A stretch of 64,000 nt of DNA from a virus (lineage: Duplodnaviria; Heunggongvirae; Uroviricota; Caudoviricetes). Below the pieces are notes generated by a model, which saw only the letters and a list, made by a program, of their open reading frames with translations, ran no database searches and was not told where the DNA came from. A program made the translations under genes and the position numbers. Positions 21,309 through 32,467 of this stretch are shown here, one piece after another. The stretch lies in the IMG/VR virus record IMGVR_UViG_3300028577_000006; one strand, 5' to 3'. Position 1 is the first letter of the stretch; each line of letters starts with the position of its first letter.

Positions 21309-21314
21309 CGCGAA

Positions 21315-21398: not shown

Positions 21399-21408
21399 CC
21401 AAGGCACC

Positions 21409-21648: not shown

Positions 21649-21715
21649 GAAGAACACTGCGGTTCTGATCTCTCCTGAACGGATGCCTGAGCACGTAGCC
21701 TTCCAGGTCAGAACC

Positions 21716-21787: not shown

Positions 21788-21826
21788 GTCATTGCGGCCC
21801 CGAGAGTCGCACTCGGTTGTCCTGGG

Positions 21827-22282
21827 TTATGAGCCCTGGCTGGCATCTCCACCTGCACCGCACAAGCTCTGCTCTTCAGACACGAAGATCGGTCCGTGAT
21901 GGCCTAGCCTCGCGCCACACGACCTTGAACACGCCACTGTCATCGTCTTGTTTCTACCGGCCCTAAGACGCAGTACGTACTCCTTTATTTCGAAGGGCTT
22001 CTTGCACCAGGCACAAAACCTGGTCACGGAAGGCTGTTCCTGGTGATGGCGCGAATGCTCGCCACGCATGACGACTTCCAGATTGCTTTCGTCGTTGTTC
22101 GTCTTGTCGTGATCAGCGTGGTGCACCACTTCACCCGGAAGCAGGAGCCGGCCAAGGCAGTTCTCGGCGATGACGCGGTGCAGCGGGTACAACCCCTTCG
22201 CGTTGCGTTTTGGATGCGGCGGATCGGTCCGCGCATACTTGTACCCGCCACCCTTGCACGTCGATGTGATCTCGAAGAGCAT
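21827..22282 (-). CDS. HNH endonuclease
   Basis: HHADHDKTNNDESNLEVVMRGEHSRHH HNH motif; C-terminal Cys pairs; embedded in tRNA array. Confidence 0.7.
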   Translation of the reverse strand: MLFEITSTCKGGGYKYARTDPPHPKRNAKGLYPLHRVIAENCLGRLLLPGEVVHHADHDKTNNDESNLEVVMRGEHSRHHQEQPSVTRFCAWCKKPFEIKEYVLRLRAGRNKTMTVACSRSCGARLGHHGPIFVSEEQSLCGAGGDASQGS

Positions 22283-22292
22283 TTTGCCACCA

Positions 22293-22364
22293 CGCTCTCG
22301 GAAGGAATCGAACCTTCGTTCCTGGCTTCGGAAACCAGTGCCCTATCCGCTGGACGACGAGAGC
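22293..22364 (-). tRNA. tRNA-Arg (anticodon CCG)
   Basis: acceptor GCTCTCG/CGAGAGC, anticodon stem CTGGT/GCCAG loop TTCCGAA. Confidence 0.85.
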
Positions 22365-22371
22365 AAGACAG

Positions 22372-22443
22372 CGTCCTCACAAGGATTCGAACCTTGAATG
22401 CAGCGTCCGTAGCGCTGAGTGATATCCGTTTCACCATGAGGAC
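22372..22443 (-). tRNA. tRNA-Arg (anticodon ACG)
   Basis: acceptor GTCCTCA/TGAGGAC, anticodon stem CAGCG/CGCTG loop CTACGGA. Confidence 0.85.
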
Positions 22444-22452
22444 AAAGGCACA

Positions 22453-22526
22453 CGCTCCGGGCGGGACTCGAACCCGCGACCAGCCGCTTAGAAGGCGGCT
22501 GCTCTGATCCACTGAGCTACCGGAAC
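22453..22526 (-). tRNA. tRNA-Arg (anticodon UCU)
   Basis: D GCTC-AGTGGATCA-GAGC, anticodon stem GCCGC/GCGGC loop CTTCTAA. Confidence 0.85.
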
Positions 22527-22653
22527 AAGGTTTCTAGCAAGGTTCGTAAGATGGCATGATGACGGCTGCTCTGCCACCTGAGCTACATCCGCACGGGCGG
22601 AAGGTTGGACTCGAACCAACGACATGCTGTTTGGGTAACCATCTGACTTCGGC
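22527..22653 (-). pseudogene. degenerate tRNA-like pair: 58-nt acceptor+T-arm element (22596..22653) and tRNA 5'-half-like segment (22527..22595)
   Basis: 22596..22653 has T-arm GTTGG-TTCGAGT-CCAAC and acceptor-like ends but no D/anticodon arms; 22527..22595 begins GCGGATGTAGCTCAGGTGGCAGAGC (canonical acceptor-5' + D-arm) then loses tRNA structure. Confidence 0.35.
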
Positions 22654-22659
22654 TAGAAG

Positions 22660-22728
22660 AGGGGCGACACAGAGTTGCACTGTGCTTCATCGGGTTGCAG
22701 CCGATGTCCTTCGCTGGAAGCTCGCCCC
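22660..22728 (-). tRNA. tRNA-Cys (anticodon GCA); T-loop TGCAACT
   Basis: acceptor GGGGCGA/TCGCCCC, anticodon stem ATCGG/CCGAT loop CTGCAAC. Confidence 0.7.
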
Positions 22729-22866
22729 AAGTTCTCTGGCAAGGGTCGTCGTTGGATATTACGGCGTTCTACTCTTGAACTACGCCCTCCATAGAAAGGG
22801 AAGGCGGCTGGAGTCGCACCAGCGTTACCGGCTCCATATGCGGTAACCAACAACATCGGCCAGAGA
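22729..22866 (-). other. structured 138-nt spacer with T-arm-like hairpin (GCTGG-TGCGACT-CCAGC) and 7-bp hairpin GTTACCG/CGGTAAC; no tRNA fold found
   Basis: hairpins seen in sequence; acceptor pairing absent. Confidence 0.3.
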
Positions 22867-22937
22867 AGCGATCGGCGAGAATCGAACTCGCGTCTCCTGG
22901 GTGGAAGCCAGGGGCCAAGCCACTTGACCACAATCGC
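22867..22937 (-). tRNA. tRNA-Gly (anticodon UCC)
   Basis: anticodon stem CCTGG/CCAGG loop CTTCCAC, T GCGAG-TTCGATT-CTCGC. Confidence 0.8.
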
Positions 22938-22948
22938 ATTGGAACCAG

Positions 22949-23022
22949 AGCCGACGATAGGACTTGCACCTACACCCTCCTCCTTACCAAGGAGGCGCAC
23001 CAGCTACTTGTGCTACGTCGGC
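22949..23022 (-). tRNA. tRNA-Thr (anticodon GGU); T-loop TGCAAGT
   Basis: acceptor GCCGACG/CGTCGGC, anticodon stem CCTCC/GGAGG loop TTGGTAA. Confidence 0.75.
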
Positions 23023-23027
23023 GAAAG

Positions 23028-23098
23028 AGCCGGCCACCAGAATCGAACTGGCCTCTAACGGCGTACAAAGCCGCTGCATCCCTTGATGCTAAACCGGC
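23028..23098 (-). tRNA. tRNA-Thr (anticodon UGU)
   Basis: anticodon loop TTTGTAC, T GCCAG-TTCGATT-CTGGT. Confidence 0.75.
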
Positions 23099-23102
23099 AC
23101 CA

Positions 23103-23173
23103 AGCCACCAGCGGGAGTCGAACCCGCACCTTCGGTTTACGAAACCGGTGCTCTGCCTCTGAGCTATGGTGGC
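23103..23173 (-). tRNA. tRNA-Thr (anticodon CGU)
   Basis: acceptor GCCACCA/TGGTGGC, D GCTC-AGAGGCA-GAGC, anticodon loop TTCGTAA. Confidence 0.75.
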
Positions 23174-23177
23174 GACA

Positions 23178-23248
23178 TGGACCTCCCGGGAATCGAACCC
23201 GGATCAGCAGCTTGCAAAGCTACTAGTCTCCCATTGACGTAGAGGCCC
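23178..23248 (-). tRNA. tRNA-Ala (anticodon UGC)
   Basis: G3:U70 pair, anticodon stem GTAGC/GCTGC loop TTTGCAA. Confidence 0.8.
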
Positions 23249-23253
23249 ATCAA

Positions 23254-23324
23254 AGCGGCTCGGGGGAATCGAACCCCAGTGGTCAGTGTGGCACACTGAC
23301 TGCGGACCACCCGCTACGAGCCGC
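23254..23324 (-). tRNA. tRNA-Gly (anticodon GCC)
   Basis: acceptor GCGGCTC/GAGCCGC, anticodon stem TCAGT/ACTGA loop GTGCCAC. Confidence 0.75.
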
Positions 23325-23475
23325 AAACAAAACTTGGGTGGATAGACCGGATTTTCACCGGCGCGCGCCGAGCTTACTGACTCGCCGCTCTGAACTGGGT
23401 CTCGTTTCCGGGCCGTTCCTCTCCCGTACTCCTCGTCCCAGCCGGATGCTGAACATCGCCTGAGCTACTATCCAC
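23325..23475 (-). ncRNA. ~151-nt tRNA-like structured RNA (8-bp acceptor-like stem GTGGATAG/CTATCCAC, D-arm-like TAGCTCAGG, T-arm-like CCGG-TGAAAAT-CCGG)
   Basis: occupies the slot between tRNA-Gly and tRNA-Ala; internal hairpins GGATG-TTCAG-CATCC etc.; no canonical anticodon arm. Confidence 0.35.
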
Positions 23476-23548
<73 letters not shown>

Positions 23549-23585
23549 GTTGCACTTCTGTCCGACACTCGCTACGCTCGCCGGC

Positions 23586-23987
23586 ATGGAACTTCCCGAC
23601 AAGATGCAGAAGGAACTCGCTGACGGCCTCCTGATCGCGTATCGCGTGAAGGAAAGCAAGCTCGACTACTCGCTGATGAACCGGCCCGAGCCGAACCTGA
23701 CCAGTCTCGACGACCACGCTCTGGCCACCGCCATCGTCCTCGCCGGGCGCGAGTTCAAGATCGTGGTCGACGACACCATCATGAAGAGCGAGCGGATCGC
23801 CCGAGACGACGGTCGGACCGTGACGTACAACGAGGCGATCGACATCAACTGGGAAGACCGCATCATCCGATCCACCCGTCGCAAGGACATGACGCTCGAC
23901 GTTCTCGCCGGCATCGTGACCCAGCTGGTGCGCGATGCCGCCGCGCCCACCGGCAGCCCCAGGCCGAGCCCGGGCAAAGCGAACTAG
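23586..23987 (+). CDS. hypothetical protein inside tRNA array
   Basis: ORF 23550..23987; internal ATG 23586; protein-like composition. Confidence 0.45.
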   Translation: MELPDKMQKELADGLLIAYRVKESKLDYSLMNRPEPNLTSLDDHALATAIVLAGREFKIVVDDTIMKSERIARDDGRTVTYNEAIDINWEDRIIRSTRRKDMTLDVLAGIVTQLVRDAAAPTGSPRPSPGKAN

Positions 23988-23988
23988 A

Positions 23989-24059
23989 TCGTCGAGCGGA
24001 GAATCGAACTCCGGTACGTCACGAGTCGGGTGACTGCCTTACCACTGGGCTACTCGACG
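23989..24059 (-). tRNA. tRNA-Val (anticodon GAC), C33 in anticodon loop
   Basis: acceptor CGTCGAG/CTCGACG, anticodon stem GTCAC/GTGAC loop CCGACTC. Confidence 0.6.
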
Positions 24060-24122
24060 TTGGTTCCGCTGGTTGAATGGCCATCCCGCGTCGGCCCATG
24101 GAACCAACGCGCGCGCAGCGGA

Positions 24123-24195
24123 TGGGCACGGTGAGACTCGAACTCACAGTCGCTCCCGTATCAGGGGAGTGCACTAACCATTGTGCTACGTGCCC
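24123..24195 (-). tRNA. tRNA-Ile (anticodon GAU)
   Basis: acceptor GGGCACG/CGTGCCC, anticodon stem CTCCC/GGGAG loop CTGATAC. Confidence 0.85.
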
Positions 24196-24198
24196 GAA

Positions 24199-24274
24199 GC
24201 GTCCTTGGCAAGAGTCGAACTTGCGACCGACCACTTAGGAAGTGGTTGCTCTGTCCAGCTGAGCTACAAGGACG
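24199..24274 (-). tRNA. tRNA-Arg (anticodon CCU)
   Basis: acceptor CGTCCTT/AAGGACG, anticodon stem ACCAC/GTGGT loop TTCCTAA. Confidence 0.8.
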
Positions 24275-24277
24275 TAG

Positions 24278-24350
24278 GGCGAGTGACGGGAATCGAACCC
24301 GCTAATAGTAGGACCACAACCTACCGCCTATCCATTTGGCTTCACCCGCC
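24278..24350 (-). tRNA. tRNA-His (anticodon GUG) with encoded G-1
   Basis: extra 5' G pairing with discriminator C73 (bacterial His identity), anticodon stem GTAGG/CCTAC loop TTGTGGT. Confidence 0.85.
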
Positions 24351-24367
24351 ATAAAAACCAAGACACT

Positions 24368-24440
24368 TGGAGCTAGCCGGAATCGAACCGGCGGCCTTCT
24401 GGCTGCGAGTCAGACGCTCTCCCAACTGAGCTATAGCCCC
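24368..24440 (-). tRNA. tRNA-Ala (anticodon CGC)
   Basis: G3:U70, D GCTC-AGTTGGGA-GAGC, anticodon loop CTCGCAG. Confidence 0.75.
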
Positions 24441-24447
24441 AGACACA

Positions 24448-24519
24448 TCGGGGTGACAGGACTCGAACCTGCGTTGACGTGCACCCAAAGCACGTGCCCG
24501 ACCACTGGGCGACACCCCG
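24448..24519 (-). tRNA. tRNA-Pro (anticodon UGG)
   Basis: acceptor CGGGGTG/CACCCCG, anticodon stem CGTGC/GCACG loop TTTGGGT. Confidence 0.85.
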
Positions 24520-24611
24520 TTACAAGTAGGCAAGGGTTGAAGGTCGGAAATGGGCCTTTCGGCCCAGTCTTTGGTATTGGTAAAGAGATAACCAACCTTC
24601 TTCGGCCTACA

Positions 24612-24685
24612 CGCCTCTGGCGGGAGTTGAACCCGCCTCGACCCTGCTTGACAAGCAGGCGTCCACGCCGGTGGACTTCAGAGGC
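24612..24685 (-). tRNA. tRNA-Asp (anticodon GUC); T-loop TTCAACT
   Basis: acceptor GCCTCTG/CAGAGGC, D GTCC/GGAC, anticodon stem CCTGC/GCAGG loop TTGTCAA. Confidence 0.8.
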
Positions 24686-24890
24686 AAAGACACATGCCCT
24701 TCCCTGGTATCGCTCCAGGCCCTTCTCCTTTTCAGAGAGACGCTTCCACTTGGTTAGCTTGAAGGGCGAATCACGGTACCGGTTGCCGACGCACGCGTGC
24801 TTAGTGCGTTTTCCGCGTCAGCCGCAAGCTTGATCACTGCCTGCCGCACCGACGTAGCGCGCCACCAACAACTTGGCCTGGTACCGTGAA

Positions 24891-24961
24891 CAGGTCGTGC
24901 AGGAGTCGAACCTGCTCGACACGAGATTTGGAATCTCGCCGGCTGCCTCAGCCTACGACCT
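24891..24961 (-). tRNA. tRNA-Trp (anticodon CCA), atypical D-arm
   Basis: acceptor AGGTCGT/ACGACCT, anticodon stem CGAGA/TCTCG loop TTCCAAA, T GCAGG-TTCGACT-CCTGC. Confidence 0.65.
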
Positions 24962-24964
24962 ATA

Positions 24965-25052
24965 CTGACCCTGAAGGAATCGAACCTCCGCATGCCTTAT
25001 GAGGGCCTCTCGGTTAACAGCCGAGCGCTCTGGCCAACTGAGCTAAGGGTCA
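24965..25052 (-). tRNA. atypical 88-nt tRNA with anticodon GUU (Asn) and a 19-nt extra arm
   Basis: acceptor TGACCCT/AGGGTCA, canonical D GCTC-AGTTGGCCA-GAGC, anticodon stem CTCGG/CCGAG loop CTGTTAA (U33, A37), then AGGCCCTCATAAGGCATGC inserted before T-arm GGAGG-TTCGATT-CCTTC. Confidence 0.55.
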
Positions 25053-25058
25053 ATACGT

Positions 25059-25110
25059 GGCTGGCGCCAAGATCGGCGCCAGCCTTCTTCTTCGGTTCTT
25101 ATTCAGTTTT
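25059..25110 (+). terminator. intrinsic-terminator-like hairpin (10-bp stem GGCTGGCGCC/GGCGCCAGCC) followed by T-rich tract, + strand orientation
   Basis: perfect 10-bp GC stem, 6-nt loop, then TTCTTCTTCGGTTCTTATTCAGTTTTC. Confidence 0.45.
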
Positions 25111-25137
25111 CAAGGCTGCACTAAGCAGCACGAACCA

Positions 25138-25208
25138 TTCCGGGGCGAGGAATCGAACCTCGATTAGCAGAGCCAGAACCTGCCGTCCTGCCATTAGACG
25201 AACCCGGA
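25138..25208 (-). tRNA. tRNA-Gln (anticodon CUG)
   Basis: U1:A72, D-arm TCGTCTAATGGCAGGAC identical to tRNA-Gln(UUG) at 11241, anticodon loop TTCTGGC, T CGAGG-TTCGATT-CCTCG. Confidence 0.75.
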
Positions 25209-25279
25209 TGGGTTGTGGGGGAATCGAACCCCCGTCGGCCGGGTAAGAACCGGCTGCTCGACCACTGAGCTAACAACCC
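25209..25279 (-). tRNA. tRNA-Lys (anticodon CUU)
   Basis: acceptor GGGTTGT/ACAACCC, D GCTC-AGTGGTC-GAGC, anticodon stem GCCGG/CCGGC loop TTCTTAC. Confidence 0.85.
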
Positions 25280-25302
25280 GCTTCACATCAACACGCTGCC
25301 AC

Positions 25303-25375
25303 TGGGAGCGACGGGACTTGAACCCGCATCGTGCGGATTAAAAGTCCGCTGTTCTGACCGTTGAACTACGCTCCC
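25303..25375 (-). tRNA. tRNA-Lys (anticodon UUU); T-loop TTCAAGT
   Basis: acceptor GGGAGCG/CGCTCCC, D GTTC-AACGGTCA-GAAC, anticodon stem GCGGA/TCCGC loop CTTTTAA. Confidence 0.85.
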
Positions 25376-25379
25376 GCTT

Positions 25380-25580
25380 CTACGCGGCAGCGCGTTTCTC
25401 CTCTCGCCCTTCGACGCCAAGGACCGTGCGACGGTCCACCGAGGACATGCCCGACCAGAGCGCGTCGAGTTCGTCCTGAAGCCGATCGGCTTCACTTTCC
25501 GCGCCCACATGCGTACGCGCGAGCTTCAGCTTCTCGCGGGTCCGTCGGTAACGCTCGATGATGTGGAAGCTCATGACCAT
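25380..25580 (-). CDS. small hypothetical protein (66 aa) between tRNA-Lys and tRNA-Tyr
   Basis: ORF fits exactly between two tRNAs; charged helical composition. Confidence 0.4.
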   Translation of the reverse strand: MVMSFHIIERYRRTREKLKLARTHVGAESEADRLQDELDALWSGMSSVDRRTVLGVEGREEKRAAA

Positions 25581-25591
25581 GTTCTCTCTGA

Positions 25592-25673
25592 TGCCGGCTA
25601 CTGGAATCGAACCAATGCACCCCGAAGGGAAGCGCGGTTACAGCGCGCAGAACGTCCATCGTTCACAACCGGC
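25592..25673 (-). tRNA. tRNA-Tyr (anticodon GUA), class II (bacterial type)
   Basis: D GAAC-GATGGAC-GTTC, anticodon stem GCGCG/CGCGC loop CTGTAAC, long extra arm TTCCC-TTCG-GGGTG. Confidence 0.85.
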
Positions 25674-25675
25674 AG

Positions 25676-25709: not shown

Positions 25710-26085
25710 TCGTGGTTGCTGGACCTTTGTCCGTGCGTCCTACGAGGGCTTCCTGGGCTTCTCCTGATTCTGATGCGCGTAGAAGCCCGACCACGCGCAC
25801 ACGACTCCGCGATCGCTACCGAGTCGCGGCAGCGTCGTGGAAATCATGGTAGCGAAGGTCGTTGTCACGGAGGGTGGTTTCTCGTTCGGTGGAGCGTCGG
25901 CCCCGGTCTCATGTGTCTGACACATCGAAGGATGGCGGGTCAAGAAGAAAAAGCAGAGCAGGAAAAAATCGTGCGGAGACCTGCCTACATCGAAACCGAG
26001 GCCCGACGTGGTGAACGCCGGGCCTCGTGGGAACGCGGCGAACCTCGCCGCTGGAGATGATCATGCGCCGAAAACGACCGGCGCG

Positions 26086-26556
26086 CTACCGGCGCAGGTG
26101 ATTGCGGGACCACCACCGTTCTGACGGGAACTGCTCCTCGCAGATCTTCCACTGCTCCACGGCGTCGGTAATCCAGGCCTTCTTCTGCACGTCGTACAGA
26201 AAAAGTGGCTTCCGATTTCCGCGTGTGCACTTCGCCGCGAAGAGCACGTCCCGCCCTCGGCCGGCGTCTTCCGTGTCGAAGATGACGACGAGCTGATCGA
26301 CAGACTTCACGAAGGCGCGCGTCGGTTCACGACCTTCTTCCATCCACGTGTGCGCCTCTTCCCAAGGCGCGCGGAGAATCTCCGGCGGAGATTTGCAGAA
26401 GCGGCGCGCAGCATGCTCAACCAAGCGACCCGTCCCCCGCTGTCCGCGACTCACGATCGTGAGTGCCTCTCCGTGACGCTCTACCAGCCGCTGCACGCAG
26501 CGATCGAGCAGCGGCGCATCGTCGAACAGGCGCGATCCGATGACTCCGACGCGCAT
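26086..26556 (-). CDS. SLOG/DUF2493-like Rossmann-fold protein (YspA-related, tentative)
   Basis: MRVGVIGSRLF ... LTIVSRGQRGTG pattern. Confidence 0.45.
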   Translation of the reverse strand: MRVGVIGSRLFDDAPLLDRCVQRLVERHGEALTIVSRGQRGTGRLVEHAARRFCKSPPEILRAPWEEAHTWMEEGREPTRAFVKSVDQLVVIFDTEDAGRGRDVLFAAKCTRGNRKPLFLYDVQKKAWITDAVEQWKICEEQFPSERWWSRNHLRR

Positions 26557-26583
26557 CAGCCCCGACTTGCCGCGATCGGCTCG

Positions 26584-26808
26584 CTACACCTGACCACGGA
26601 ACACCACGCTGTACTTGGGCACGATGCGCTCGTCACCGATCTCCGCCGCGCTCGCGTGAGGCAGCCGAGTCGCCTCCAGAAACCGCACGCGGTAGTACTT
26701 GTTCGTCTCCCCAGTCACCTCGACTGAAACCGAACTTCGCCCCGACCATCCATCGAGACACATGCGAGCCGCCTTCGGCTCCATCTGCTTCACTTCCGAC
26801 TTCTTCAC
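26584..26808 (-). CDS. hypothetical protein
   Basis: ORF upstream of S24 peptidase. Confidence 0.4.
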   Translation of the reverse strand: MKKSEVKQMEPKAARMCLDGWSGRSSVSVEVTGETNKYYRVRFLEATRLPHASAAEIGDERIVPKYSVVFRGQV

Positions 26809-27135
26809 CTACGCCTCCACCTTCACCAAGCGTCCGTAGACCTGGGACCGATTCACCCAGCCGTTGAGCCTGCCATGATTGTTTCCAATCAGGAAGCCTC
26901 GGTTGAGGTCCACGGACTTCACGAGGTGGAGATAGTAGGACGAGCGGACGAAACAGAGAACGACGTCGTCGACCTCTGGATCGGCCACGAGAGGTTCGAC
27001 CGTACACAGCTGCCCAGACTTGATCCGGGGCGTCATCGAGTTGCCTCTGGGCCGGAACGAAACCGTCTCGCCGGCCACGAGCTTCTCGGCGTACGGCTTG
27101 GCCCAGCCATCCCTCACGCTCAGCCCTTCACGCAC
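26809..27135 (-). CDS. S24-family (LexA/UmuD-like) peptidase domain protein
   Basis: GNSMTPRIKSGQL matches the GDSMxP serine-nucleophile motif of S24 peptidases; no HTH domain. Confidence 0.6.
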   Translation of the reverse strand: MREGLSVRDGWAKPYAEKLVAGETVSFRPRGNSMTPRIKSGQLCTVEPLVADPEVDDVVLCFVRSSYYLHLVKSVDLNRGFLIGNNHGRLNGWVNRSQVYGRLVKVEA

Positions 27136-28283
27136 ATGATCTGCTTGAGCTTCTCGTGGATCGTCACGAGGTCAGCCTGGTTGGCCATGACCTGGTCGAT
27201 GTCCTTGTACGACATGGGGATCTCGTCGAGCACGCTGCTGTCCTTGCGGCACTCGACGCCCGCTGTCGCTGACGCAAGATCGTCGAGCGTGAACGTTCGC
27301 TTCGCTTCGCCGCGCGACATGCGGCGGCCGGCGCCGTGTGATGCCGAATGGAACGACTCCGGGTTGCCGAGGCCCTTCACGATGTACGAGCACGTTCCCA
27401 TCGAGCCCGGGATGATGCCCCACTCGCCTGCGCGCGCCGAGATCGCGCCCTTGCGTGTGACGATAACGTCCTCGCCGAAGTGGCACTCGTGGCTGACGTA
27501 GTTGTGGTGACAGGAGATCGGCTCGAAGAATGCCACTCCGGGTACCATCGAACGCAAAACATCCTGGTAGATGACAAGCATCACCTGACGATTCTCCTTC
27601 GCGTATCGCTGCGCCCATTCCAAATCGTGAACGTAGGCCGCCATCTCTGGCGTCTTCGAAAGAAACACGGCGAGATCACGGTCCGGAAGAAGGGCGTTGT
27701 GTGCGAGCTTCTTCGCTCGCTTGATGTGGATCTCGGCCAGGCACTTTCCGATGTTGCGTGAGCCCGAATGCAGCATCATCCACACGTGATCGTGTGAATC
27801 CAGGCACAGCTCGATGAAGTGGTTCCCGCCGCCGAGCGAGCCCATCTGCTTCATCGCCGTGCCGTACTTGTCCGCCACGCTCTCGTCAAGATCCTTGAAG
27901 CTCGCCCAGAGTGCCGACTTACGCGCGCTCTTGTGCATCGAGTCGTGTCCGTTCGGACCAAGCGGAATCACCTCTTCGATCTTCGACCGAAGATCTTTCA
28001 GCGAATCCGGAAGATGGTGCGACGTCATGTTGGTCTCGACCGCCAGCATGCCGCAGCCGATGTCAACTCCCACGGCAGCGGGCGAGAGCGCGTCCTTCAT
28101 CGCGATCACCGAGCCGACGGTCGCGCCCTTCCCGAGGTGCACGTCTGGCATGACCGCGACGTGCTTGAACGCCCACGGAAGCGCAGCGATGCCCTTCAGC
28201 TGATCGATCGCAGCCGACTCTACCTCGTGTCGGTTCGCCCACATCTTGATGGGAACCACCTTGCCCTGAAGCTCGTCGATCAT
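27120..28283 (-). CDS. rtcB: RNA-splicing ligase RtcB (3'-phosphate/5'-hydroxyl RNA ligase)
   Basis: 387 aa; metal-binding His/Cys-rich motifs (GGNHFIE, HSGSRN, AHNA) typical of RtcB. Confidence 0.9.
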   Translation of the reverse strand: MIDELQGKVVPIKMWANRHEVESAAIDQLKGIAALPWAFKHVAVMPDVHLGKGATVGSVIAMKDALSPAAVGVDIGCGMLAVETNMTSHHLPDSLKDLRSKIEEVIPLGPNGHDSMHKSARKSALWASFKDLDESVADKYGTAMKQMGSLGGGNHFIELCLDSHDHVWMMLHSGSRNIGKCLAEIHIKRAKKLAHNALLPDRDLAVFLSKTPEMAAYVHDLEWAQRYAKENRQVMLVIYQDVLRSMVPGVAFFEPISCHHNYVSHECHFGEDVIVTRKGAISARAGEWGIIPGSMGTCSYIVKGLGNPESFHSASHGAGRRMSRGEAKRTFTLDDLASATAGVECRKDSSVLDEIPMSYKDIDQVMANQADLVTIHEKLKQIMCVKG

Positions 28284-28306
28284 GACTCTCTCCCGCCTTC
28301 GTCGCC

Positions 28307-28549
28307 TCAGTTCGGATCGTTCGCTATCAACCAGTTCGCAAAACGCACGCCGTGCCCTTCCGTGCCACCGATTTCATCCACGATCTGCATGAAGCGCTGC
28401 GCTATTTCGTTGTGACGAACGACGTCTTCGATCGTCTGACCTTCCGCCATCAGCCAGCGCAGATACTGACCCAGCGAAACCTTGTCTGCCAAGTCCATCG
28501 TTACGTGCAGTGATTCCTTGTCTGCGCCTACGTCAATCTTAGCCCTCAT
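28307..28549 (-). CDS. small hypothetical protein (80 aa) upstream of rtcB
   Basis: internal ATG 28549 with SD AAGGTGG; upstream part of annotated ORF is Arg-rich. Confidence 0.45.
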   Translation of the reverse strand: MRAKIDVGADKESLHVTMDLADKVSLGQYLRWLMAEGQTIEDVVRHNEIAQRFMQIVDEIGGTEGHGVRFANWLIANDPN

Positions 28550-28560
28550 GCTGCCACCTT

Positions 28561-30543
28561 TCACGTCGACCTCCAAAAGATCTCCTGCGCCTCCACGCAA
28601 AGCTCGTTGAGCTTCGCCACGTCTGGCGCGTGCCGCAACGTTGACTCCTTGTACAGCGTCTGCATCTCTGCGTCCTGCTGTTCGGCCCACTCGACCAGCC
28701 TCTCGTACGGCCACTCGCCTGCGCGGATCGCGAGAAGCTCCTTCGCGTCCGGACGCCGCACGATGACACCTTGGCCCTCCAAGATCTCGCGACACATGCG
28801 CAAGAGTCTGACGAGGTGCATACCGTGTTTGGTGTTGCCGTGGATCGCGATCTTGCCTTCGCGCCGTGTCACCAGGATCTCGTTAGGCACCGTGAAGCAA
28901 ACGATTCTTGCGCCAGTCATCCGCAACAAGTCTAGTGACTGGCTGTCCGGAGCCAGACGCACGTGCGCCGCTATACGTCGGTCACCAACGTAGACCTGAT
29001 ACATGGGCCCTTTACCACCCTCGTAAACGTACGGCCCCCATACCTGCGACACGATGCCCGACGACACGCACATCACCTGGACATCATCAGCCAGTTGCTT
29101 CGACGAGGTGTAGTACACGCGGCTGTGTTCGCGTTCCGTGCCATCCCCGGCGACCATCACTTCCAGCAGCAAATCGACCTGTCGCCTGGAAAGCTCGCGC
29201 GTCCAGTCAGGCAACCGCAACGATGCAGATCCAACGCCACAGCACCGCTCGACCCAACCAGCCCGAGTGCGGTCAGCAATCGTCCACACGTGCTCATCGC
29301 ACGCAGCCGAACGGTGCTCGTCGGCTTGGTGCGTGTACGCGTACCTCCGGATGGCATCCGGAAACTTCACCATCAACCCGTCCATGTACGGCTGCTGACG
29401 GCCTCCGACCTTCTGCGAGATCCGCAGCACAGATGCGCTTCCGTCCGCCAGACGCTTACCCACGCACCCTTCGGTGACGTAACAGCCCAATAGAACAAGA
29501 TCGTCGTCTGACACCGGATACTCGACTTCGGTCGCATCAGCAGTCAGCCGCGTATGAAACCCGGACCGCCGATCGGCCAAGAGATCACGCAACGGCCGCA
29601 GCGTCCAATCGGCACGGTCCGCGGCGAACTCCCAAGAAAACCCGTTGGTTTTGCTGCGGTGTGCCGGCGACACCAACATTCGATGGTTCATGGTCACGGC
29701 ACAGTTGGAGTGCTGCGGATGCAAAACGGCGATCTCCCCGTCGAACGGCTTGGCCACGCGCTCGGTGAAGCCCTGGTACTCGATGCGACCCGTACGCGGA
29801 TTCAACGTTCCCACGCGCGCGTCGTCGGGGATGTCGTCATACCGCTTCCAGCCGCTTTCGGTCAGGAACTCGGTGTCGTCCAAGTAGCAGTCGTAGCCAT
29901 GCTGCGCTTCGAGCGCCGCGCGCTTCTGGTTCCGATCCGTCTTCCATCGCTCGTGCGAGTTCCACGCATCGAGCGCGGCCTTGTACTTCTTCTCCTTCGC
30001 CACGAGGTCCATGACGTTGGCGTCGCCGGCCATGCCTTCGGCGGCCATCTTGTCGAAGGCGCCCATCATGTCGGGCGTGATCTTCATCTCGGTGGAGAGG
30101 CCGTACTCCTTGCGCGTCGGCTTGTGGTCTGGCGGGTTGAGCAGGTAGCCACGATGCGTGCGGATCCGCTTCAGTTGGCTGACCGCATACCCGCTGAACG
30201 TGTGCCGCGCCTTCTTCGACAAGAAGAGGTCGCGGTTCTCACGGATCAGTCGTCCTGCCGGATGCTGGAAGAGCACGTCCGAGTCATCGACGAAGAGCAC
30301 CTCGATGATGTTCGGGTTGCAGTCGGCAGCCAGGTTGCAGAACTTCCGGATGTCGTAAACGACCTTGTCTTCCGGCTCCATCTGCTGGTGCTGCTCGAAG
30401 CTGTACGCGAAGCCCAGCACGAAGTTCTTCGGCGAGACCGCGAAACCCTTCGTGTCGATGTCCGACGTCGGCAAGCTGGTGCCGTACGCGTGGCTGCCGT
30501 GCCGCGCGAGGAAGACGGTGTGCTTGGCGATGTCGAAGTGCAT
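28561..30543 (-). CDS. Pol-beta-superfamily nucleotidyltransferase (RNA-repair-associated type) interrupted by an intein
   Basis: N-extein RHGSHAYGTSLPTSDIDTKG (GS..DxD NTase motif); intein CYLDDTEFLTESGW ... two LAGLIDADG blocks (LLGCYVTEG, LLLEVMVAGDG) ... VCFTVPNEILV...IAIHGN followed by Thr. Confidence 0.7.
   Translation of the reverse strand: MHFDIAKHTVFLARHGSHAYGTSLPTSDIDTKGFAVSPKNFVLGFAYSFEQHQQMEPEDKVVYDIRKFCNLAADCNPNIIEVLFVDDSDVLFQHPAGRLIRENRDLFLSKKARHTFSGYAVSQLKRIRTHRGYLLNPPDHKPTRKEYGLSTEMKITPDMMGAFDKMAAEGMAGDANVMDLVAKEKKYKAALDAWNSHERWKTDRNQKRAALEAQHGYDCYLDDTEFLTESGWKRYDDIPDDARVGTLNPRTGRIEYQGFTERVAKPFDGEIAVLHPQHSNCAVTMNHRMLVSPAHRSKTNGFSWEFAADRADWTLRPLRDLLADRRSGFHTRLTADATEVEYPVSDDDLVLLGCYVTEGCVGKRLADGSASVLRISQKVGGRQQPYMDGLMVKFPDAIRRYAYTHQADEHRSAACDEHVWTIADRTRAGWVERCCGVGSASLRLPDWTRELSRRQVDLLLEVMVAGDGTEREHSRVYYTSSKQLADDVQVMCVSSGIVSQVWGPYVYEGGKGPMYQVYVGDRRIAAHVRLAPDSQSLDLLRMTGARIVCFTVPNEILVTRREGKIAIHGNTKHGMHLVRLLRMCREILEGQGVIVRRPDAKELLAIRAGEWPYERLVEWAEQQDAEMQTLYKESTLRHAPDVAKLNELCVEAQEIFWRST
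28834..29889 (-). mobile_element. intein (~352 aa) with LAGLIDADG homing-endonuclease domain
   Basis: Cys1 block A, block F-like VCFTVPNEILV, C-terminal HGN then +1 Thr; two LAGLIDADG motifs. Confidence 0.65.
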
Positions 30544-30547
30544 GGCT

Positions 30548-31030
30548 CTAGCTCCAGTCGACTTGTAGGCCCCAGCAGGTCTTGACATCGTAGACCTTGC
30601 GAAGAGCAGAGAGTTCTTCGGGGAACTGCCCCTCGAACAACGCCATCTCCGCCTCACGGTCCACGCCGGCCAGATCTACGTGATGGCTCGCGCCTCTATC
30701 TCCGTTCAGCCTCAAGCCGACCGAGCCTCGGATGTTCGGTACGAAGTAGACGACGTCCTCGTCCTCGTCATCACGGATCGACGACAGGCGCTCGCTCTCG
30801 CCGAGCGCTTCGTGCGGCGACGGTCGACCCTTCACCAGCTTCGTCGTCTTGCCTGTCGCAGTGCCACACGTGGCGCAGAACGACGAGAGCGCAGCCTGCA
30901 TCCAGGTCTCGCGCTTCTTCCACTGCGCACACTTCGAGTTCGTGCACCCGTACACATCTACCTCGCGCTCGCTTGGCTCTGCGGTCGCCTCGGCATACGG
31001 CCCGACGTACATGCTCATGTAGAGACCCAT
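30548..31030 (-). CDS. hypothetical zinc-ribbon protein
   Basis: CTNSKC ... CATCG Cys pairs; start uncertain (GTG 31057 or ATG 31030). Confidence 0.4.
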   Translation of the reverse strand: MGLYMSMYVGPYAEATAEPSEREVDVYGCTNSKCAQWKKRETWMQAALSSFCATCGTATGKTTKLVKGRPSPHEALGESERLSSIRDDEDEDVVYFVPNIRGSVGLRLNGDRGASHHVDLAGVDREAEMALFEGQFPEELSALRKVYDVKTCWGLQVDWS

Positions 31031-31031
31031 G

Positions 31032-31499
31032 TCACTCCACCTCCGTGAGCTGGGCACGACGTCGTGCCTGCTTCACCCTCTCGACCGCCTGTGCCAACTG
31101 TCGCTGCGTCGCTGCGTCTTTCACCGGGAGCGGTCCCGCAGACAGCGCCTTCGCCTCCGATGGACCGTAGCCCTTGTAGCGCACGCCCCGGCCACGCACG
31201 CGATGACCCTTCTGCTCTGGAAGCTGCGTGAACCACGCCGGCTTCACCATGCCGAGCTTGTGGGCAACCGCGAGAGCGCGCTTCGGGCTGATGCCGTGTA
31301 GCTCCAAGAGCTTGCTCGAAGCCTCTTGATACGCCTCGGTCGCCGCTCGTTCCTCGGGCGTCTGACGCGTCAGCCACCAGTTCGCCGGAGGGCATGCCGC
31401 ATCGAGAGCGTCCGCGTGCGCATAGAGTCGCTCGACCTCCTGCTGGAGGCCGGCCACTCTCTGCGCGCCGCGTAGCTTCCGTACGAGCGGCTTCATCAC
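31032..31499 (-). CDS. hypothetical protein
   Basis: ORF; alternative frames in the same region are Arg-rich artifacts. Confidence 0.4.
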   Translation of the reverse strand: MMKPLVRKLRGAQRVAGLQQEVERLYAHADALDAACPPANWWLTRQTPEERAATEAYQEASSKLLELHGISPKRALAVAHKLGMVKPAWFTQLPEQKGHRVRGRGVRYKGYGPSEAKALSAGPLPVKDAATQRQLAQAVERVKQARRRAQLTEVE

Positions 31500-32467
31500 T
31501 ACTGGCTCGGACTGTCGGTGGGCAACACCACTCGGATCTGCTGTGCCGCAGAGGTCGGCACGAAGATCGTACGCGTCGTCGTGCTCGACACCACCGCTCT
31601 GAACGCATCGATGCGGCGCGCTTCGAGGACCGCCGGAGACAACGAAGCCGTCTGTAGACGTGCCGCATCAGCTTCGCCTTGTGCTCGAATGCGCAGAGCG
31701 TCGGCCTCGCCCTGCGCTCGGATGATCGCCTGCTGCGCGACGTCACGCGCTTCGGTCTGAGCGCGCTCTGACTCGGCCTGCGCCGTCAGCAGCTGCTGCT
31801 GGCGCTGCGCAGTCTCCTGTCGCTGCTGCTGCACGGCTGCGATGGACTGATCGAGAGACGCCGGAAGATCGATCGCCTGAAGCAAGATGTTCTCGACGAT
31901 GACAGCGCCAGGAGAGATGGAGCGGCTTCGCAACGCATCCTCCACGCGCGCGAGAACAAGGAACTCCATCCGATGCTGAAGATCTGCGCGCTGATCGATG
32001 AGGTTCACGGCGGTGAACTCGCTCGCGGCGTCGCGCACAGCGGTTCTCACGATCGGATGAATGATCGTGTCCGCATACGCTGAGCCGTAGGCCGAAAAGA
32101 CCTGCGGCGCGAAAGCCGGCGCCAGGTGGTACTGCACCGTGCAGCTGAGCGTCACCGCAAGCTGGTCGCGTGCGAGCACTTCGACTGCGGCGCCACGTTC
32201 GACCGTGCTCTCCACGCCGCCCTGCGCATCCGGCGTTCCGGAGTTGCCCATCTCGTAGGCCTGCGTGCGCGTGGACATGGTCTCCACGTGCATCCCGAAC
32301 ATGGGCGTCCAGTGGAAGCCGGGCGGATAGATCCAGTCGTGCACCTGCCCCCACTCGACCGCGACGCCCACTTCACCAGGATCGACCTGGCTCGTGCATC
32401 CGCATCCGACCGCCAAGCTGGACAGCACAACCACGAACAGAACCAGAACGGAAAATCTCATCTTCAT
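31499..32467 (-). CDS. SPFH/band-7 (prohibitin/HflK-like) domain lipoprotein
   Basis: signal peptide with lipobox LAVGC; SPFH-like core; C-terminal coiled-coil with AQGEADALRIRAQGEADAARL repeat. Confidence 0.65.
   Translation of the reverse strand: MKMRFSVLVLFVVVLSSLAVGCGCTSQVDPGEVGVAVEWGQVHDWIYPPGFHWTPMFGMHVETMSTRTQAYEMGNSGTPDAQGGVESTVERGAAVEVLARDQLAVTLSCTVQYHLAPAFAPQVFSAYGSAYADTIIHPIVRTAVRDAASEFTAVNLIDQRADLQHRMEFLVLARVEDALRSRSISPGAVIVENILLQAIDLPASLDQSIAAVQQQRQETAQRQQQLLTAQAESERAQTEARDVAQQAIIRAQGEADALRIRAQGEADAARLQTASLSPAVLEARRIDAFRAVVSSTTTRTIFVPTSAAQQIRVVLPTDSPSQ

What the first reader, a model, noticed from the sequence alone, without database searches (positions are those of the whole stretch)
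28834..29889. LAGLIDADG-containing intein inside an RNA-repair-type nucleotidyltransferase
The NTase ORF is interrupted after ...AQHGYD by CYLDDTEFLTESGW, and the host frame resumes after ...VCFTVPNEILVTRREGKIAIHGN with Thr+1. Two LAGLIDADG blocks lie between. Inteins usually sit in replication or packaging enzymes; one in a putative RNA-repair NTase next to rtcB is unusual. The C-terminal junction HGN rather than HN is atypical.
Basis: partly seen in the sequence, partly recalled or inferred. Interest (0 to 1): 0.6.

Follow-up and report, generated by a model that had tools for sequence, protein, structure and literature searches.

The report
Homing intein in phage RlaP nucleotidyltransferase
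A real self-splicing intein with a homing endonuclease interrupts a phage RNA-repair enzyme gene, but the same intein at the same site is already published for mycobacteriophages, so this is a new example of a known thing.

Summary
On the minus strand, 28834..29889 encodes a 352-aa insertion (Cys1 ... His-Gly-Asn, then Thr+1) inside an RlaP (PF10127) nucleotidyltransferase gene (28561..30543). The gene sits next to rtcB and a 37-tRNA array.

Removing the 352 residues gives a 308-aa protein. It aligns without a gap to the 13 intein-free homologues aligned, and all 120 top homologues are of intein-free length (up to 84% identity). One relative has an empty site at the DNA level. The insertion models with high confidence (pLDDT 95.5) as a Hint domain plus a LAGLIDADG endonuclease, and its 14 best PDB matches are all intein homing endonucleases.

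An intein in this enzyme is not unusual. The same intein at the same GYD|TKH site is published for Cluster C1 mycobacteriophage gp3 (Cali, ET08, LRRHood; 41.5% identity, matching published boundaries). I also found it in Pectobacterium and Prevotella Lak phages.

The 'HGN' end is conserved across the family as [H/Q]-G-N. It is shared with the Bethlehem RDF intein, which splices efficiently with a penultimate Gly. A conserved Cys at inferred block F position 4 is the only mildly intriguing feature.

Verdict: genuine intein, new member of a known kind, low-to-moderate interest.

The parts
28561..30543 (-). rlaP precursor gene: 660 codons plus stop, made of N-extein, intein and C-extein
   Evidence: ORF list and translation. 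Pfam RlaP PF10127 E = 8e-18 on the precursor and 9e-20 on the spliced form. The start at ATG 30543 is supported by the homologue alignment.
29890..30543 (-). N-extein, 218 aa: Pol-beta-type NTase domain (GS...SDIDTKG) and linker, ending in ...EAQHGYD
   Evidence: Alignment A1 shows invariant G16, S17, D28, D30, D64 and D218. Pfam RlaP covers residues 9-128.
28834..29889 (-). Intein, 352 aa, Cys1 to Asn352
   Evidence: The gap in 13 intein-free homologues matches it exactly. AlphaFold2 model pLDDT 95.5, pTM 0.93. The top 14 Foldseek PDB hits are all intein homing endonucleases, best E = 1.7e-14. The family profile hits PI-PkoII at 1e-11 and the AceL NrdHF intein at 1.7e-4.
29530..29889 (-). N-terminal part of the Hint splicing domain (about residues 1-120). 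It includes block A (CYLDDTEFLTESGW, 29848..29889) and block B (AVTMNHRMLV, 29671..29700; Thr66 and His69)
   Evidence: All-beta secondary structure in the model. Conservation: C1 41/41, T66 40/43, H69 41/43. Profile match to the AceL NrdHF mini-intein over this region. The domain boundary is approximate.
28975..29529 (-). LAGLIDADG homing-endonuclease domain (about residues 121-305). Motif 1 is at 29461..29499 (Glu140) and motif 2 at 29134..29172 (Asp249)
   Evidence: Pfam LAGLIDADG_3 at 25.1 bits, above the cutoff. Profile alignment to the PI-PkoII endonuclease domain. Foldseek hits to I-DmoI and I-SceI. E140 is E or D in 42/43 and D249 is invariant in 43/43. The domain boundary is approximate.
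28834..28974 (-). C-terminal part of the Hint domain (about residues 306-352). Blocks F and G are RIVCFTVPNEILVTRREGKIAIHGN (28834..28908): Cys331 = 28897..28899, His350 = 28840..28842, Gly351, Asn352 = 28834..28836
   Evidence: A long beta-strand (319-333) followed by a terminal hairpin (338-343, 346-351) in the model. V330, F332, V334, L339, T341, R342 and G351 are invariant; C331 and N352 are present in 41/41 spliced members. The assignment of C331 to block F position 4 is inferred from the sequence pattern and strand position.
28564..28833 (-). C-extein, 90 aa, starting with Thr+1 (28831..28833): TKHGMHLVRLLRM..., the helical C-terminal domain of RlaP
   Evidence: Alignment A1: K, H, H, R and L of the D|xKHxxHxxRL motif are invariant, and the +1 position is T, S, C or G in intein-free homologues.
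27120..28283 (-). rtcB RNA ligase (387 aa), co-directional functional partner of RlaP. It is context, not part of the intein.
   Evidence: Pfam PF01139 E = 1.1e-118, full-length model coverage.

Best explanation
This is a bona fide, probably active, class-1-type intein carrying a LAGLIDADG homing endonuclease. It is inserted in the most conserved motif (G-Y-D|T-K-H) of a phage RlaP nucleotidyltransferase.

How it most likely works:
1. The gene is translated as a 660-aa precursor.
2. The Hint domain carries out an N-S acyl shift at Cys1, assisted by block B Thr66 and His69.
3. The N-extein is trans-esterified onto Thr+1.
4. Asn352 cyclises, without a penultimate His, and an O-N shift follows.
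5. This releases a 308-aa RlaP with the native ...GYD-TKH... sequence and a free 352-aa intein.

The free intein would act as a site-specific endonuclease. It would cut intein-less rlaP alleles at about GGCTACGAC|ACCAAGCACGG in co-infecting relatives, so that repair copies the intein in (homing).

The spliced RlaP adds one or two nucleotides to the 3'-OH of damaged tRNA or RNA. It works with the adjacent RtcB ligase, presumably to protect the phage's tRNA pool from host anticodon nucleases.

What is shown here: the precise in-frame insertion, the fold, the conserved catalytic residues, the homology to published inteins, and the empty site in a relative. What is inferred: actual splicing, endonuclease activity and the recognition sequence, and the in vivo role.
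For: - **Precise insertion.** Excision restores a 308-aa protein that aligns at 100% coverage. All 120 top database homologues have intein-free lengths of 304-384 aa, with up to 84% identity. In the 13 of them that I aligned, the gap runs exactly from C1 to N352.
- **Empty site at DNA level.** The spliced gene is 83.4% identical over about 924 nt, ungapped, to the intein-free gene in L002. The 9 nt upstream of the site are identical, and 21 of the first 23 nt downstream match.
- **Fold.** AlphaFold2 model pLDDT 95.5, pTM 0.93. The 14 best Foldseek PDB hits are TliVMA, PI-SceI, PI-PfuI, PhoVMA and PI-PkoII, with E from 1.7e-14 to 4e-9.
- **Sequence profile.** PI-PkoII at 1.1e-11 and the AceL NrdHF intein at 1.7e-4. 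Pfam LAGLIDADG_3 is above its cutoff.
- **Catalytic residues.** C1, T66, H69, N352, a +1 residue of T, S or C, plus endonuclease E140 and D249, are conserved across 41 spliced family members.
- **Same allele in published inteins.** The Cali gp3 intein at 1035..2033 (Kelley 2016, Table S2) coincides with my tblastn match of residues 1-352 at 41.5% identity.
- **Same site in other phages.** Pectobacterium phage DU_PP_IV and Prevotella phage Lak-B1.
- **Signs of mobility.** The distribution is sporadic: 0 of the 120 closest exteins carry it. Intein identity (43-51%) exceeds extein identity (18-40%) against the actinophage-type hosts. Intein GC3 is 0.74 against 0.90 and 0.83 for the exteins.
- **Experimental precedent for the non-canonical end.** The Bethlehem RDF intein (317 aa, Gly316) has the same C1 / TxNH / V-x-C / xGN|S pattern. 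It spliced completely in E. coli, and its endonuclease was toxic there (PMC5050341).
- **RlaP function.** Biochemistry and structure in PMC12776372 and the phage context in PMC7824862.
Against: - No Pfam or NCBIfam Hint or intein-splicing model matched. A single-sequence search of the PDB found nothing.
- Three residues that assist catalysis in textbook inteins are replaced: the penultimate His is Gly351, the block F Asp is Cys331, and the block F His is Asn336. The last two assignments are inferred.
- In the papers I could read, no NT/RlaP intein has been tested for splicing. Only the TerL and RDF inteins were.
- The closest intein relative in 5.8 billion proteins is only 58% identical, so there is no sign of very recent transfer into this lineage.
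- The endonuclease could be inactive despite its conserved acidic residues.
Confidence: 0.8

Rival explanations
1. The family splices by a hybrid or class-3-like route. The conserved block F Cys (Cys331), not only Cys1, would take part covalently, for example by relaying the N-extein thioester to the weak Thr/Ser +1 nucleophile. Alternatively, Cys1 and Cys331 could form a disulfide that makes splicing, and so tRNA repair, sensitive to redox state.
For: - Cys331 is present in 41 of 41 spliced members.
- The two free-standing relatives lost C1, H69 and N352, and they also lost C331 while keeping the endonuclease residues. This ties C331 to splicing rather than to folding.
- The +1 residue is mostly Thr or Ser, as in class 3 inteins.
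- In class 3 inteins the Cys at block F position 4 sits between both junctions, where class 1 inteins have Asp.
- A catalytic Cys disulfide acts as a redox switch in the M. smegmatis DnaBi1 intein.
Against: - Cys1 and the block B Thr-x-x-His motif, both class 1 hallmarks, are fully conserved.
- The class 3 W-C-T triplet is not present: the residues are Met71, Cys331 and His/Gln350.
- The block F position 4 assignment is inferred from the sequence pattern. I could not read coordinates of the model.
- A structural or general acid-base role for the Cys is equally possible.
Confidence: 0.12
2. The element is a resident, decaying intein. It may still splice, or may be splicing-impaired, but its endonuclease is dead and it no longer moves. 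It would then be vertically inherited baggage, or the rlaP gene would be effectively inactivated.
For: - The nearest intein relative is only 58% identical.
- There is only one copy of the family in the window.
- Canonical assisting residues are missing.
Against: - The 1056-nt reading frame is intact, in a genome where a random 60%-GC frame would rarely stay open that long.
- Both LAGLIDADG acidic residues and all splicing nucleophiles are retained.
- The model is very confident across both domains.
- Mini-inteins and degraded endonucleases in this literature look different.
Confidence: 0.15
3. The 352 residues are a native, non-excised domain of this nucleotidyltransferase, for example a DNA- or RNA-binding module, rather than an intein.
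For: No Pfam Hint or intein model matches.
Against: - Thousands of homologues lack it (5995 hits; all of the top 120 are of intein-free length).
- It interrupts an invariant motif.
- It begins with Cys and ends with Asn, followed by Thr, Ser or Cys, in every host.
- Its fold is that of an intein endonuclease.
- It is homologous to published inteins.
Confidence: 0.01

Closest known systems
NT (gp3 nucleotidyltransferase) inteins of Cluster C1 mycobacteriophages: Cali, LRRHood, ET08 and others (Pope 2011, PMC3029335; Kelley 2016, PMC5050341; Gosselin 2025, bioRxiv 10.1101/2025.01.02.630785)
   Same: - Same host family (PF10127 / IPR018775).
- Same insertion point, between the Asp and the Thr of G-[YFW]-D|T-K.
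- Same architecture: Hint plus an in-frame LAGLIDADG endonuclease, about 335-350 aa.
- Same motifs: CYLDDTEFLT..GW, VTxNHRM, VCFTVPNE.LVTRR and [H/Q]GN|T.
- 41.5% identity over all 352 residues.
- The host phages are also large and rich in tRNA genes. That Bixzunavirus phages carry about 30 or more tRNAs is from my own knowledge.
   Different: - The extein belongs to a different RlaP subfamily: 308 aa against about 270-290 aa, and only about 30% identical in the NTase domain.
- In this window the gene lies directly beside rtcB and upstream of a 37-tRNA array. In Cali it is gene 3 among small unknown ORFs.
- The host phage lineage is unrelated at the DNA level.
Bethlehem RDF (phosphoesterase) intein, the mycobacteriophage intein with a penultimate Gly that was tested experimentally
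   Same: It shares Cys1, block B T-x-N-H, a V-x-C block F, an x-G-N end, a Ser/Thr +1 residue and a LAGLIDADG endonuclease. Kelley 2016 showed that it splices completely in E. coli, that a Gly-to-His change slows splicing, and that its endonuclease is toxic.
   Different: It has a different host protein and insertion site. The relationship is distant: it was not among the tblastn hits at E <= 1e-3 and aligns only with MAFFT. The residue before Gly-Asn is Thr rather than His or Gln.
Archaeal and yeast intein homing endonucleases with solved structures: TliVMA, PI-SceI, PI-PfuI, PI-PkoII
   Same: The overall two-domain fold: a Hint horseshoe plus a LAGLIDADG endonuclease. Foldseek E = 1.7e-14 to 6e-11, TM 0.5-0.6. 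The profile hits PI-PkoII at 1e-11.
   Different: Sequence identity is about 10-12%. Those inteins have the canonical penultimate His and sit in V-ATPase, ribonucleotide reductase or DNA polymerase hosts.
Class 3 inteins (MP-Be DnaB, Msm DnaBi1, Mch DnaB1)
   Same: A Cys at inferred block F position 4, a mostly Thr/Ser +1 residue, and an association with phages and actinobacteria.
   Different: Class 3 inteins lack an N-terminal nucleophile and carry the Trp-Cys-Thr triplet. This intein has Cys1 and block B Thr, with Met and His/Gln at the Trp and Thr positions.

Membership tests
Intein (class 1, canonical four-step splicing) | In-frame insertion absent from orthologues, whose excision restores a conserved host motif | tested here: met
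   The gap runs exactly from C1 to N352 in 13 aligned homologues, and the top 120 hits are all of intein-free length. A DNA-level empty site exists in L002.
Intein (class 1, canonical four-step splicing) | Hint (Hedgehog/intein) fold | tested here: met
   AlphaFold2 model pLDDT 95.5. The top 14 Foldseek PDB hits are inteins. The profile hits the AceL NrdHF mini-intein at 1.7e-4. However, no Pfam Hint or Intein_splicing model hit.
Intein (class 1, canonical four-step splicing) | N-terminal nucleophile (Cys or Ser at position 1) and block B Thr-x-x-His | tested here: met
   Cys1, Thr66 and His69. In the family they are conserved in 41/41, 40/43 and 41/43 sequences.
Intein (class 1, canonical four-step splicing) | C-terminal Asn followed by Cys, Ser or Thr at +1 | tested here: met
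   Asn352 and Thr+1. Family members have N followed by T, S or C.
Intein (class 1, canonical four-step splicing) | Penultimate His (block G position 6). Common, but not obligatory. | tested here: not met
   Gly351 is invariant in 43/43 sequences, with His or Gln one position earlier. There is documented precedent for splicing without this His (Kelley 2016; Chen 2000 and Wang & Liu 1997 as cited there).
Intein (class 1, canonical four-step splicing) | Block F position 4 Asp. Usual, but not obligatory. | tested here: not met
   Cys331 sits in V-C-F-T-V. The position is assigned by sequence pattern and strand location, so it is inferred.
Intein (class 1, canonical four-step splicing) | Demonstrated protein splicing (ligated exteins plus free intein) | not testable with these tools
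   This needs expression followed by SDS-PAGE or mass spectrometry. The papers I read do not report a test of any NT/RlaP intein.
LAGLIDADG homing endonuclease (intein-borne, monomeric, two motifs) | Two LAGLIDADG helices, each ending in an acidic residue followed by Gly | tested here: met
   ...YVTE140G and ...AGD249G. E or D at 140 in 42/43 and D at 249 in 43/43. Both lie at the C-terminal ends of helices 128-140 and 235-249 in the model.
LAGLIDADG homing endonuclease (intein-borne, monomeric, two motifs) | Family HMM and fold match | tested here: met
   Pfam PF14528 at 25.1 bits against a cutoff of 22.5. PI-PkoII endonuclease domain at 1e-11. I-DmoI and I-SceI fold hits at 1e-5.
LAGLIDADG homing endonuclease (intein-borne, monomeric, two motifs) | Site-specific cleavage of the intein-less allele | not testable with these tools
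   A candidate target is defined from L002.
Class 3 intein | No nucleophile at position 1 | tested here: not met
   Cys1 is present and conserved.
Class 3 intein | Trp-Cys-Thr triplet (block B position 12, block F position 4, block G position 5) | tested here: not met
   The residues are Met71, Cys331 and His350 (Gln in 12/43). Only the Cys matches. The definition is from PMC2807308.
RlaP (PF10127) RNA-repair nucleotidyltransferase (host protein) | Pfam PF10127 match above the gathering score, and Pol-beta catalytic residues (G-S ... D-x-D ... D) | tested here: met
   71.8 bits against a cutoff of 23 on the spliced form. G16, S17, D28, D30 and D64 are invariant in A1.
RlaP (PF10127) RNA-repair nucleotidyltransferase (host protein) | Genomic association with an RNA ligase | tested here: met
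   rtcB lies 278 nt downstream on the same strand, with one 80-codon ORF between them. The family definition is from PMC12776372 and PMC7824862.
RlaP (PF10127) RNA-repair nucleotidyltransferase (host protein) | Addition of 1-2 NMP to the RNA 3'-OH | not testable with these tools
   This was shown only for the Pseudomonas enzymes.
Published 'NT' intein allele of Cluster C1 mycobacteriophages | Same insertion site and significant full-length sequence homology | tested here: met
   YGWD|C...HGN|TK in Cali gp3 against HGYD|C...HGN|TK here. tblastn E = 3e-67, 100% coverage, 41.5% identity. The published coordinates 1035..2033 match the hit.

The most novel reading that the evidence does not exclude
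The window's intein belongs to a broad phage clade defined by Cys1, a strictly conserved Cys at block F position 4, an invariant penultimate Gly and a Thr/Ser +1 residue. Other members are the RlaP, RDF, DNMT and some TerL inteins.

The most novel reading not excluded is that this clade uses the internal Cys covalently. That would be a class 1 / class 3 hybrid, possibly the evolutionary bridge behind the proposed phage origin of class 3 inteins. Alternatively the Cys could pair with Cys1 as a redox switch, so that maturation of the tRNA-repair enzyme is conditional.

The co-loss of C1, H69, C331 and N352 in the free-standing relatives is the only new evidence for a splicing role of C331.
Probability: 0.1. 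Interest if true: 0.55.

Novelty: new member of a known kind. Interest (0 to 1): 0.25.

Why it matters
The practical consequence is for annotation. The gene should be annotated as an intein-containing rlaP whose mature product is a 308-aa RNA-repair nucleotidyltransferase, not as a 698-aa hypothetical protein or an 'HNH/LAGLIDADG endonuclease'. Several GenBank records of the mycobacteriophage homologues carry that endonuclease label.

It also extends the known range of this intein allele. Beyond actinobacteriophages, it now includes an unrelated, largely unannotatable high-GC phage, Pectobacterium Certrevirus and Prevotella Lak megaphages. It also occurs in cellular contigs (a Lentzea genome and a Promethearchaeota MAG). 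This fits homing that targets the invariant D|TKH codons across very divergent RlaP genes.

The family offers a clean natural dataset of 41 or more sequences, plus two splicing-dead free-standing derivatives. That dataset could be used to study what replaces the penultimate His and the block F Asp. None of this changes current understanding of inteins.

Tried and rejected
- **Pfam and NCBIfam on the intein alone.** Only LAGLIDADG_3 matched, plus weak GyrA and DnaB intein-containing 'exception' models. No Hint model matched.
- **Single-sequence phmmer of the intein against the PDB.** Nothing relevant was found. The one hit, CpcN at E = 0.6, is noise.
- **phmmer of the spliced RlaP against the PDB.** There was no homologue. 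The PfRlaP structure from the December 2025 preprint is evidently not in that copy.
- **A 44-column profile of blocks F and G against the PDB.** There were no hits, so I could not anchor the block F numbering on a solved intein.
I discarded them.
- **Megablast of 26000..32000 against phage genomes.** The only match was 52 nt inside rtcB, to a Rhodococcus phage, so there is no close sequenced relative.
- **HMM of the intein family against the six-frame translation of the window.** There is no second copy.
- **PHROGs and Pfam on 20 other large ORFs to identify the host phage.** They were almost entirely uninformative.
- **The Pectobacterium CB7 paper.** Its inteins are in the helicase and NrdA/NrdB, not in the nucleotidyltransferase.
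- **Tori & Perler 2011 (PMC3133030).** It covers inteins that have both Cys1 and the WCT triplet, but it is not held in the library.
- **The native-domain hypothesis.** Considered and rejected; see the rival explanations.
Full report
**1. The observation**

The minus-strand ORF 28561..30657 reads ...RNQKRAALEAQHGYD, then CYLDDTEFLTESGW..., and ends the insert with ...ILVTRREGKIAIHGN followed by TKHGMHLVRLLRM.... Mapping residues back to the DNA shows the insert is 352 codons occupying exactly 28834..29889. Thr+1 is at 28831..28833.

The mechanically listed GTG start at 30657 is probably wrong. All homologues begin at MHFD..., the upstream ORF stops at 30548, and a GGAG precedes ATG 30543. The precursor is therefore 660 aa: a 218-aa N-extein, a 352-aa intein and a 90-aa C-extein.

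**2. Is it an insertion?**

Pfam places both exteins in RlaP (PF10127). The score rises when the insert is removed, from 65.5 to 71.8 bits.

Searching the spliced 308-aa sequence against 5.8 billion proteins gave 5995 hits. The best 120 are all 304-384 aa, cover 94-100% of the query, and reach 84% identity.

In a MAFFT alignment of the precursor with 13 of these hits, every homologue has one gap, running exactly from Cys1 to Asn352. The flanks form an invariant D|x-K-H-x-x-H-x-x-R-L motif, with T, S, C or G at the +1 position.

At the DNA level, the spliced gene is 83.4% identical, ungapped, to the intein-free gene of a related metagenomic phage contig (L002). The 9 nt upstream of the insertion point are identical, and 21 of the first 23 nt downstream match. 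So an empty site exists in a relative.

The intein's GC3 (0.74) is lower than that of the exteins (0.90 and 0.83), which is compatible with a foreign origin.

**3. Is it an intein?**

Direct HMM evidence is thin. Only LAGLIDADG_3 passes its cutoff, and no Hint model matches. A single-sequence PDB search found nothing.

Three independent lines fill the gap.

- **Sequence profile.** A profile of 43 family members hits the Thermococcus Pol intein endonuclease PI-PkoII (E = 1.1e-11) over the endonuclease domain. It also hits the AceL NrdHF mini-intein (E = 1.7e-4) over the N-terminal splicing region.
- **Predicted structure.** An AlphaFold2 model built on that alignment is very confident (pLDDT 95.5, pTM 0.93). 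It shows an all-beta N-terminal lobe, an alpha/beta core with two long helices ending at the two LAGLIDADG motifs, and a C-terminal long strand plus hairpin.
- **Fold search.** The 14 best Foldseek matches in the PDB are all intein homing endonucleases: TliVMA, PI-SceI, PI-PfuI, PhoVMA and PI-PkoII, with E from 1.7e-14 to 4e-9. Free-standing LAGLIDADG enzymes follow.

The catalytic inventory is:

- Cys1.
- Block B Thr66-x-x-His69.
- Endonuclease Glu140 and Asp249.
- Asn352.
- Thr+1.

All of these are conserved in the family.

**4. Relatives of the intein**

The intein search returned 55 proteins. Most are about 600-aa RlaP proteins. In every complete one the junctions are G-[YFW]-D|C-[YH]-x-x-x-T-E-F-L-T-x-x-G-W ... 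T-R-[RS]-x-G-x-x-x-x-[HQ]-G-N|[TSC]-K. This is therefore one intein allele that recurs at one site.

Against the annotated phage collection, 113 records match, 92 of them mycobacteriophages. The full-length matches lie in gene 3, 'nucleotidyltransferase', of Cluster C1 (Bixzunavirus) genomes, at 40-42% identity. The weaker mycobacteriophage matches (about 25% identity) fall in DNA methylase genes instead.

Cali gp3 reads YGWD|CYLDDTEFLTRRGW ... NGKVAMHGN|TKTGYH. Kelley et al. 2016, Table S2, lists the Cali NT intein at 1035..2033. Those are precisely the coordinates of my match.

These inteins have a publication history:

- They were first noted in ET08, Cali and LRRHood gp3 in 2011.
- Twenty-three 'NT' inteins were tabulated in 2016.
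- A 2025 survey again lists nucleotidyltransferase (IPR018775) inteins, and also inteins in RtcB itself.

The same allele also occurs in Pectobacterium phage DU_PP_IV (FGYD|CYLDSSTEFLT ... SFHGN|TKHAMH). It occurs in Prevotella megaphage Lak-B1 too (NYD|CYLNNETEFLT ... AFHGN|SKNMMH). Among the protein hits are a Lentzea genome and a Promethearchaeota MAG.

Against the actinophage-type hosts, intein identity (43-51%) exceeds extein identity (18-40%). Meanwhile the 120 closest exteins all lack the intein. This is the sporadic, incongruent pattern expected of a homing element.

**5. The 'atypical' HGN end**

Gly351 is invariant (43/43). The preceding residue is His (31) or Gln (12), and Asn352 is present in all spliced members.

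Kelley et al. report that the penultimate His is poorly conserved in mycobacteriophage class 1 inteins, being Gly, Lys or Ser. They also show that the Bethlehem RDF intein, which has a penultimate Gly316, splices to completion in E. coli, whereas the G316H mutant accumulates precursor.

I retrieved that intein. It is 317 aa with Gly at position 316, matching their numbering. In a MAFFT alignment it shares the following with the window's intein, Cali gp3, a DNMT intein (Dorothy gp75) and a TerL intein (GMA6):

- Cys1.
- T-x-N-H in block B.
- A V-x-C-x-x-V-P block F.
- An x-G-N end followed by Ser or Thr.

The HGN end is therefore typical of the clade and has experimental precedent.

**6. A residue worth noting: Cys331**

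By sequence pattern (V-C-F-T-V against the canonical v-Y-D-L-t-V), and by its position near the end of the long Hint strand 319-333, Cys331 occupies block F position 4. That position is usually Asp in class 1 inteins and is the catalytic Cys in class 3 inteins. This assignment is inferred. I could not anchor it on a solved structure.

Cys331 is present in 41/41 spliced members. Two free-standing relatives, P0139 and P0141, have lost C1, His69 and Asn352. They have also lost Cys331 (to Ser and Gly), yet they keep both endonuclease acidic residues.

That co-loss suggests Cys331 is tied to splicing. It does not make this a class 3 intein. Cys1 and block B Thr are conserved, and the Trp and Thr of the W-C-T triplet are Met71 and His/Gln350. 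I keep a hybrid or redox-switch mechanism as a low-probability rival.

**7. The host protein and its neighbourhood**

RlaP enzymes add one or two NMPs to the 3'-OH of damaged RNAs. They are needed to restore the function of tRNAs that lost nucleotides before ligation. They comprise an N-terminal Pol-beta domain and a C-terminal helical domain, with the active cleft between them. In jumbo phages their distribution follows that of the RNA ligases.

Here the co-directional order on the minus strand is:

- A small Zn-ribbon-like ORF.
- rlaP with its intein.
- An 80-codon ORF.
- rtcB (27120..28283, PF01139, E = 1e-118).
- A weak S24-like ORF.
- A 74-codon ORF.
- A SLOG/YspA-like ORF.
- 37 tRNA genes (25674 down to 11241), with a Ro60/TROVE gene embedded among them.

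The intein splits the protein at the first residues of the C-terminal domain's invariant motif. The unspliced precursor is therefore unlikely to be active, although that is inferred. Insertion into an invariant motif is the normal habit of inteins.

**8. Conclusion**

The finding is real, and its coordinates and junctions are exact. The element is a homing-endonuclease-bearing intein of a published allele (the RlaP/'NT' intein), found here in a new, otherwise poorly annotatable, high-GC phage rich in tRNA genes. Neither the location nor the HGN terminus is novel.

Splicing and homing remain untested for any member of this particular allele in the literature I could read. They are supported by residue conservation and by experiments on a clade relative.

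I rate this a new member of a known kind, with low-to-moderate interest.

Noticed in passing
window 11241..25674 (- strand): There are 37 tRNA genes, all on the minus strand, within about 14.4 kb. They cover all 20 amino acids, with several isoacceptors for Arg, Leu, Ser, Thr, Ala, Pro and Gly (ARAGORN; Rfam confirms most of them). A few ORFs are interspersed. The array lies immediately downstream of the rlaP-rtcB cluster. The window looks like part of a large, novel phage genome: almost no Pfam or PHROG hits elsewhere and no DNA match to sequenced phages.
   Followed up: partly
window 12049..13803 (- strand): A phage-encoded Ro60 orthologue is embedded in the tRNA array (TROVE PF05731 at 4e-44 and Ro60 vWA PF25045 at 4e-59). 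Together with RtcB and RlaP it forms an RNA repair and quality-control island.
   Followed up: partly
window 22545..22645 and 22733..22850 (- strand): Two sub-threshold matches to the Rfam YrlA (bacterial Y RNA-like) model score 36.8 bits (E = 7e-5) and 30.4 bits (E = 5e-3), against a gathering score of 69. They fall in gaps of the tRNA array where ARAGORN calls no tRNA. They could be Y-RNA-like partners of the phage Ro60. This was not verified by folding or covariation.
   Followed up: no
L008 806..1936 (P0139), and P0141 (JGI contig, no DNA held): Two free-standing proteins are 43-45% identical to the intein over its full length. They have lost Cys1, the block B His, the block F Cys and the terminal Asn, but they keep both LAGLIDADG acidic residues. 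Both genes sit immediately downstream of a Ro60 gene, and one is followed by a Macro-domain gene. They look like intein-derived free-standing homing endonucleases, analogous to HO. They are located in RNA-repair neighbourhoods.
   Followed up: partly
L003 649..2751 (Pectobacterium phage DU_PP_IV p186); L004 about 1501..2568 (Prevotella phage Lak-B1, unannotated): The same RlaP intein allele, at the same D|[TS]K site, is present in phages of Gammaproteobacteria and in Lak megaphages of Bacteroidota. The papers I read do not mention these occurrences. In GenBank the DU_PP_IV gene is annotated only as 'putative nucleotidyltransferase'.
   Followed up: partly
phage collection hits H7, H11, H15, H17 and others: Many GenBank records of Cluster C1 mycobacteriophages annotate the intein-containing gp3 as 'HNH endonuclease' or 'LAGLIDADG endonuclease' rather than as an intein-containing nucleotidyltransferase. 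The annotation of one and the same gene is inconsistent.
   Followed up: no
window 31499..32467 (- strand) and 45987..47483 (- strand): Two other annotatable genes were seen. One is an SPFH/Band-7 protein with a lipoprotein-like signal (PF01145, 2e-28). The other is a 498-aa protein with an ice-binding-like domain (PF11999, 3e-36), possibly a structural or adhesin protein.
   Followed up: no
L002 (Logan SRR21041034 contig), 8001..8927 and neighbours: The closest intein-free rlaP (84% aa identity) sits in a different neighbourhood: NUDIX, NAMPT/NAPRTase and DUF5131, with no adjacent rtcB. So the rlaP-rtcB adjacency seen in the window is not conserved even among close relatives.
   Followed up: no
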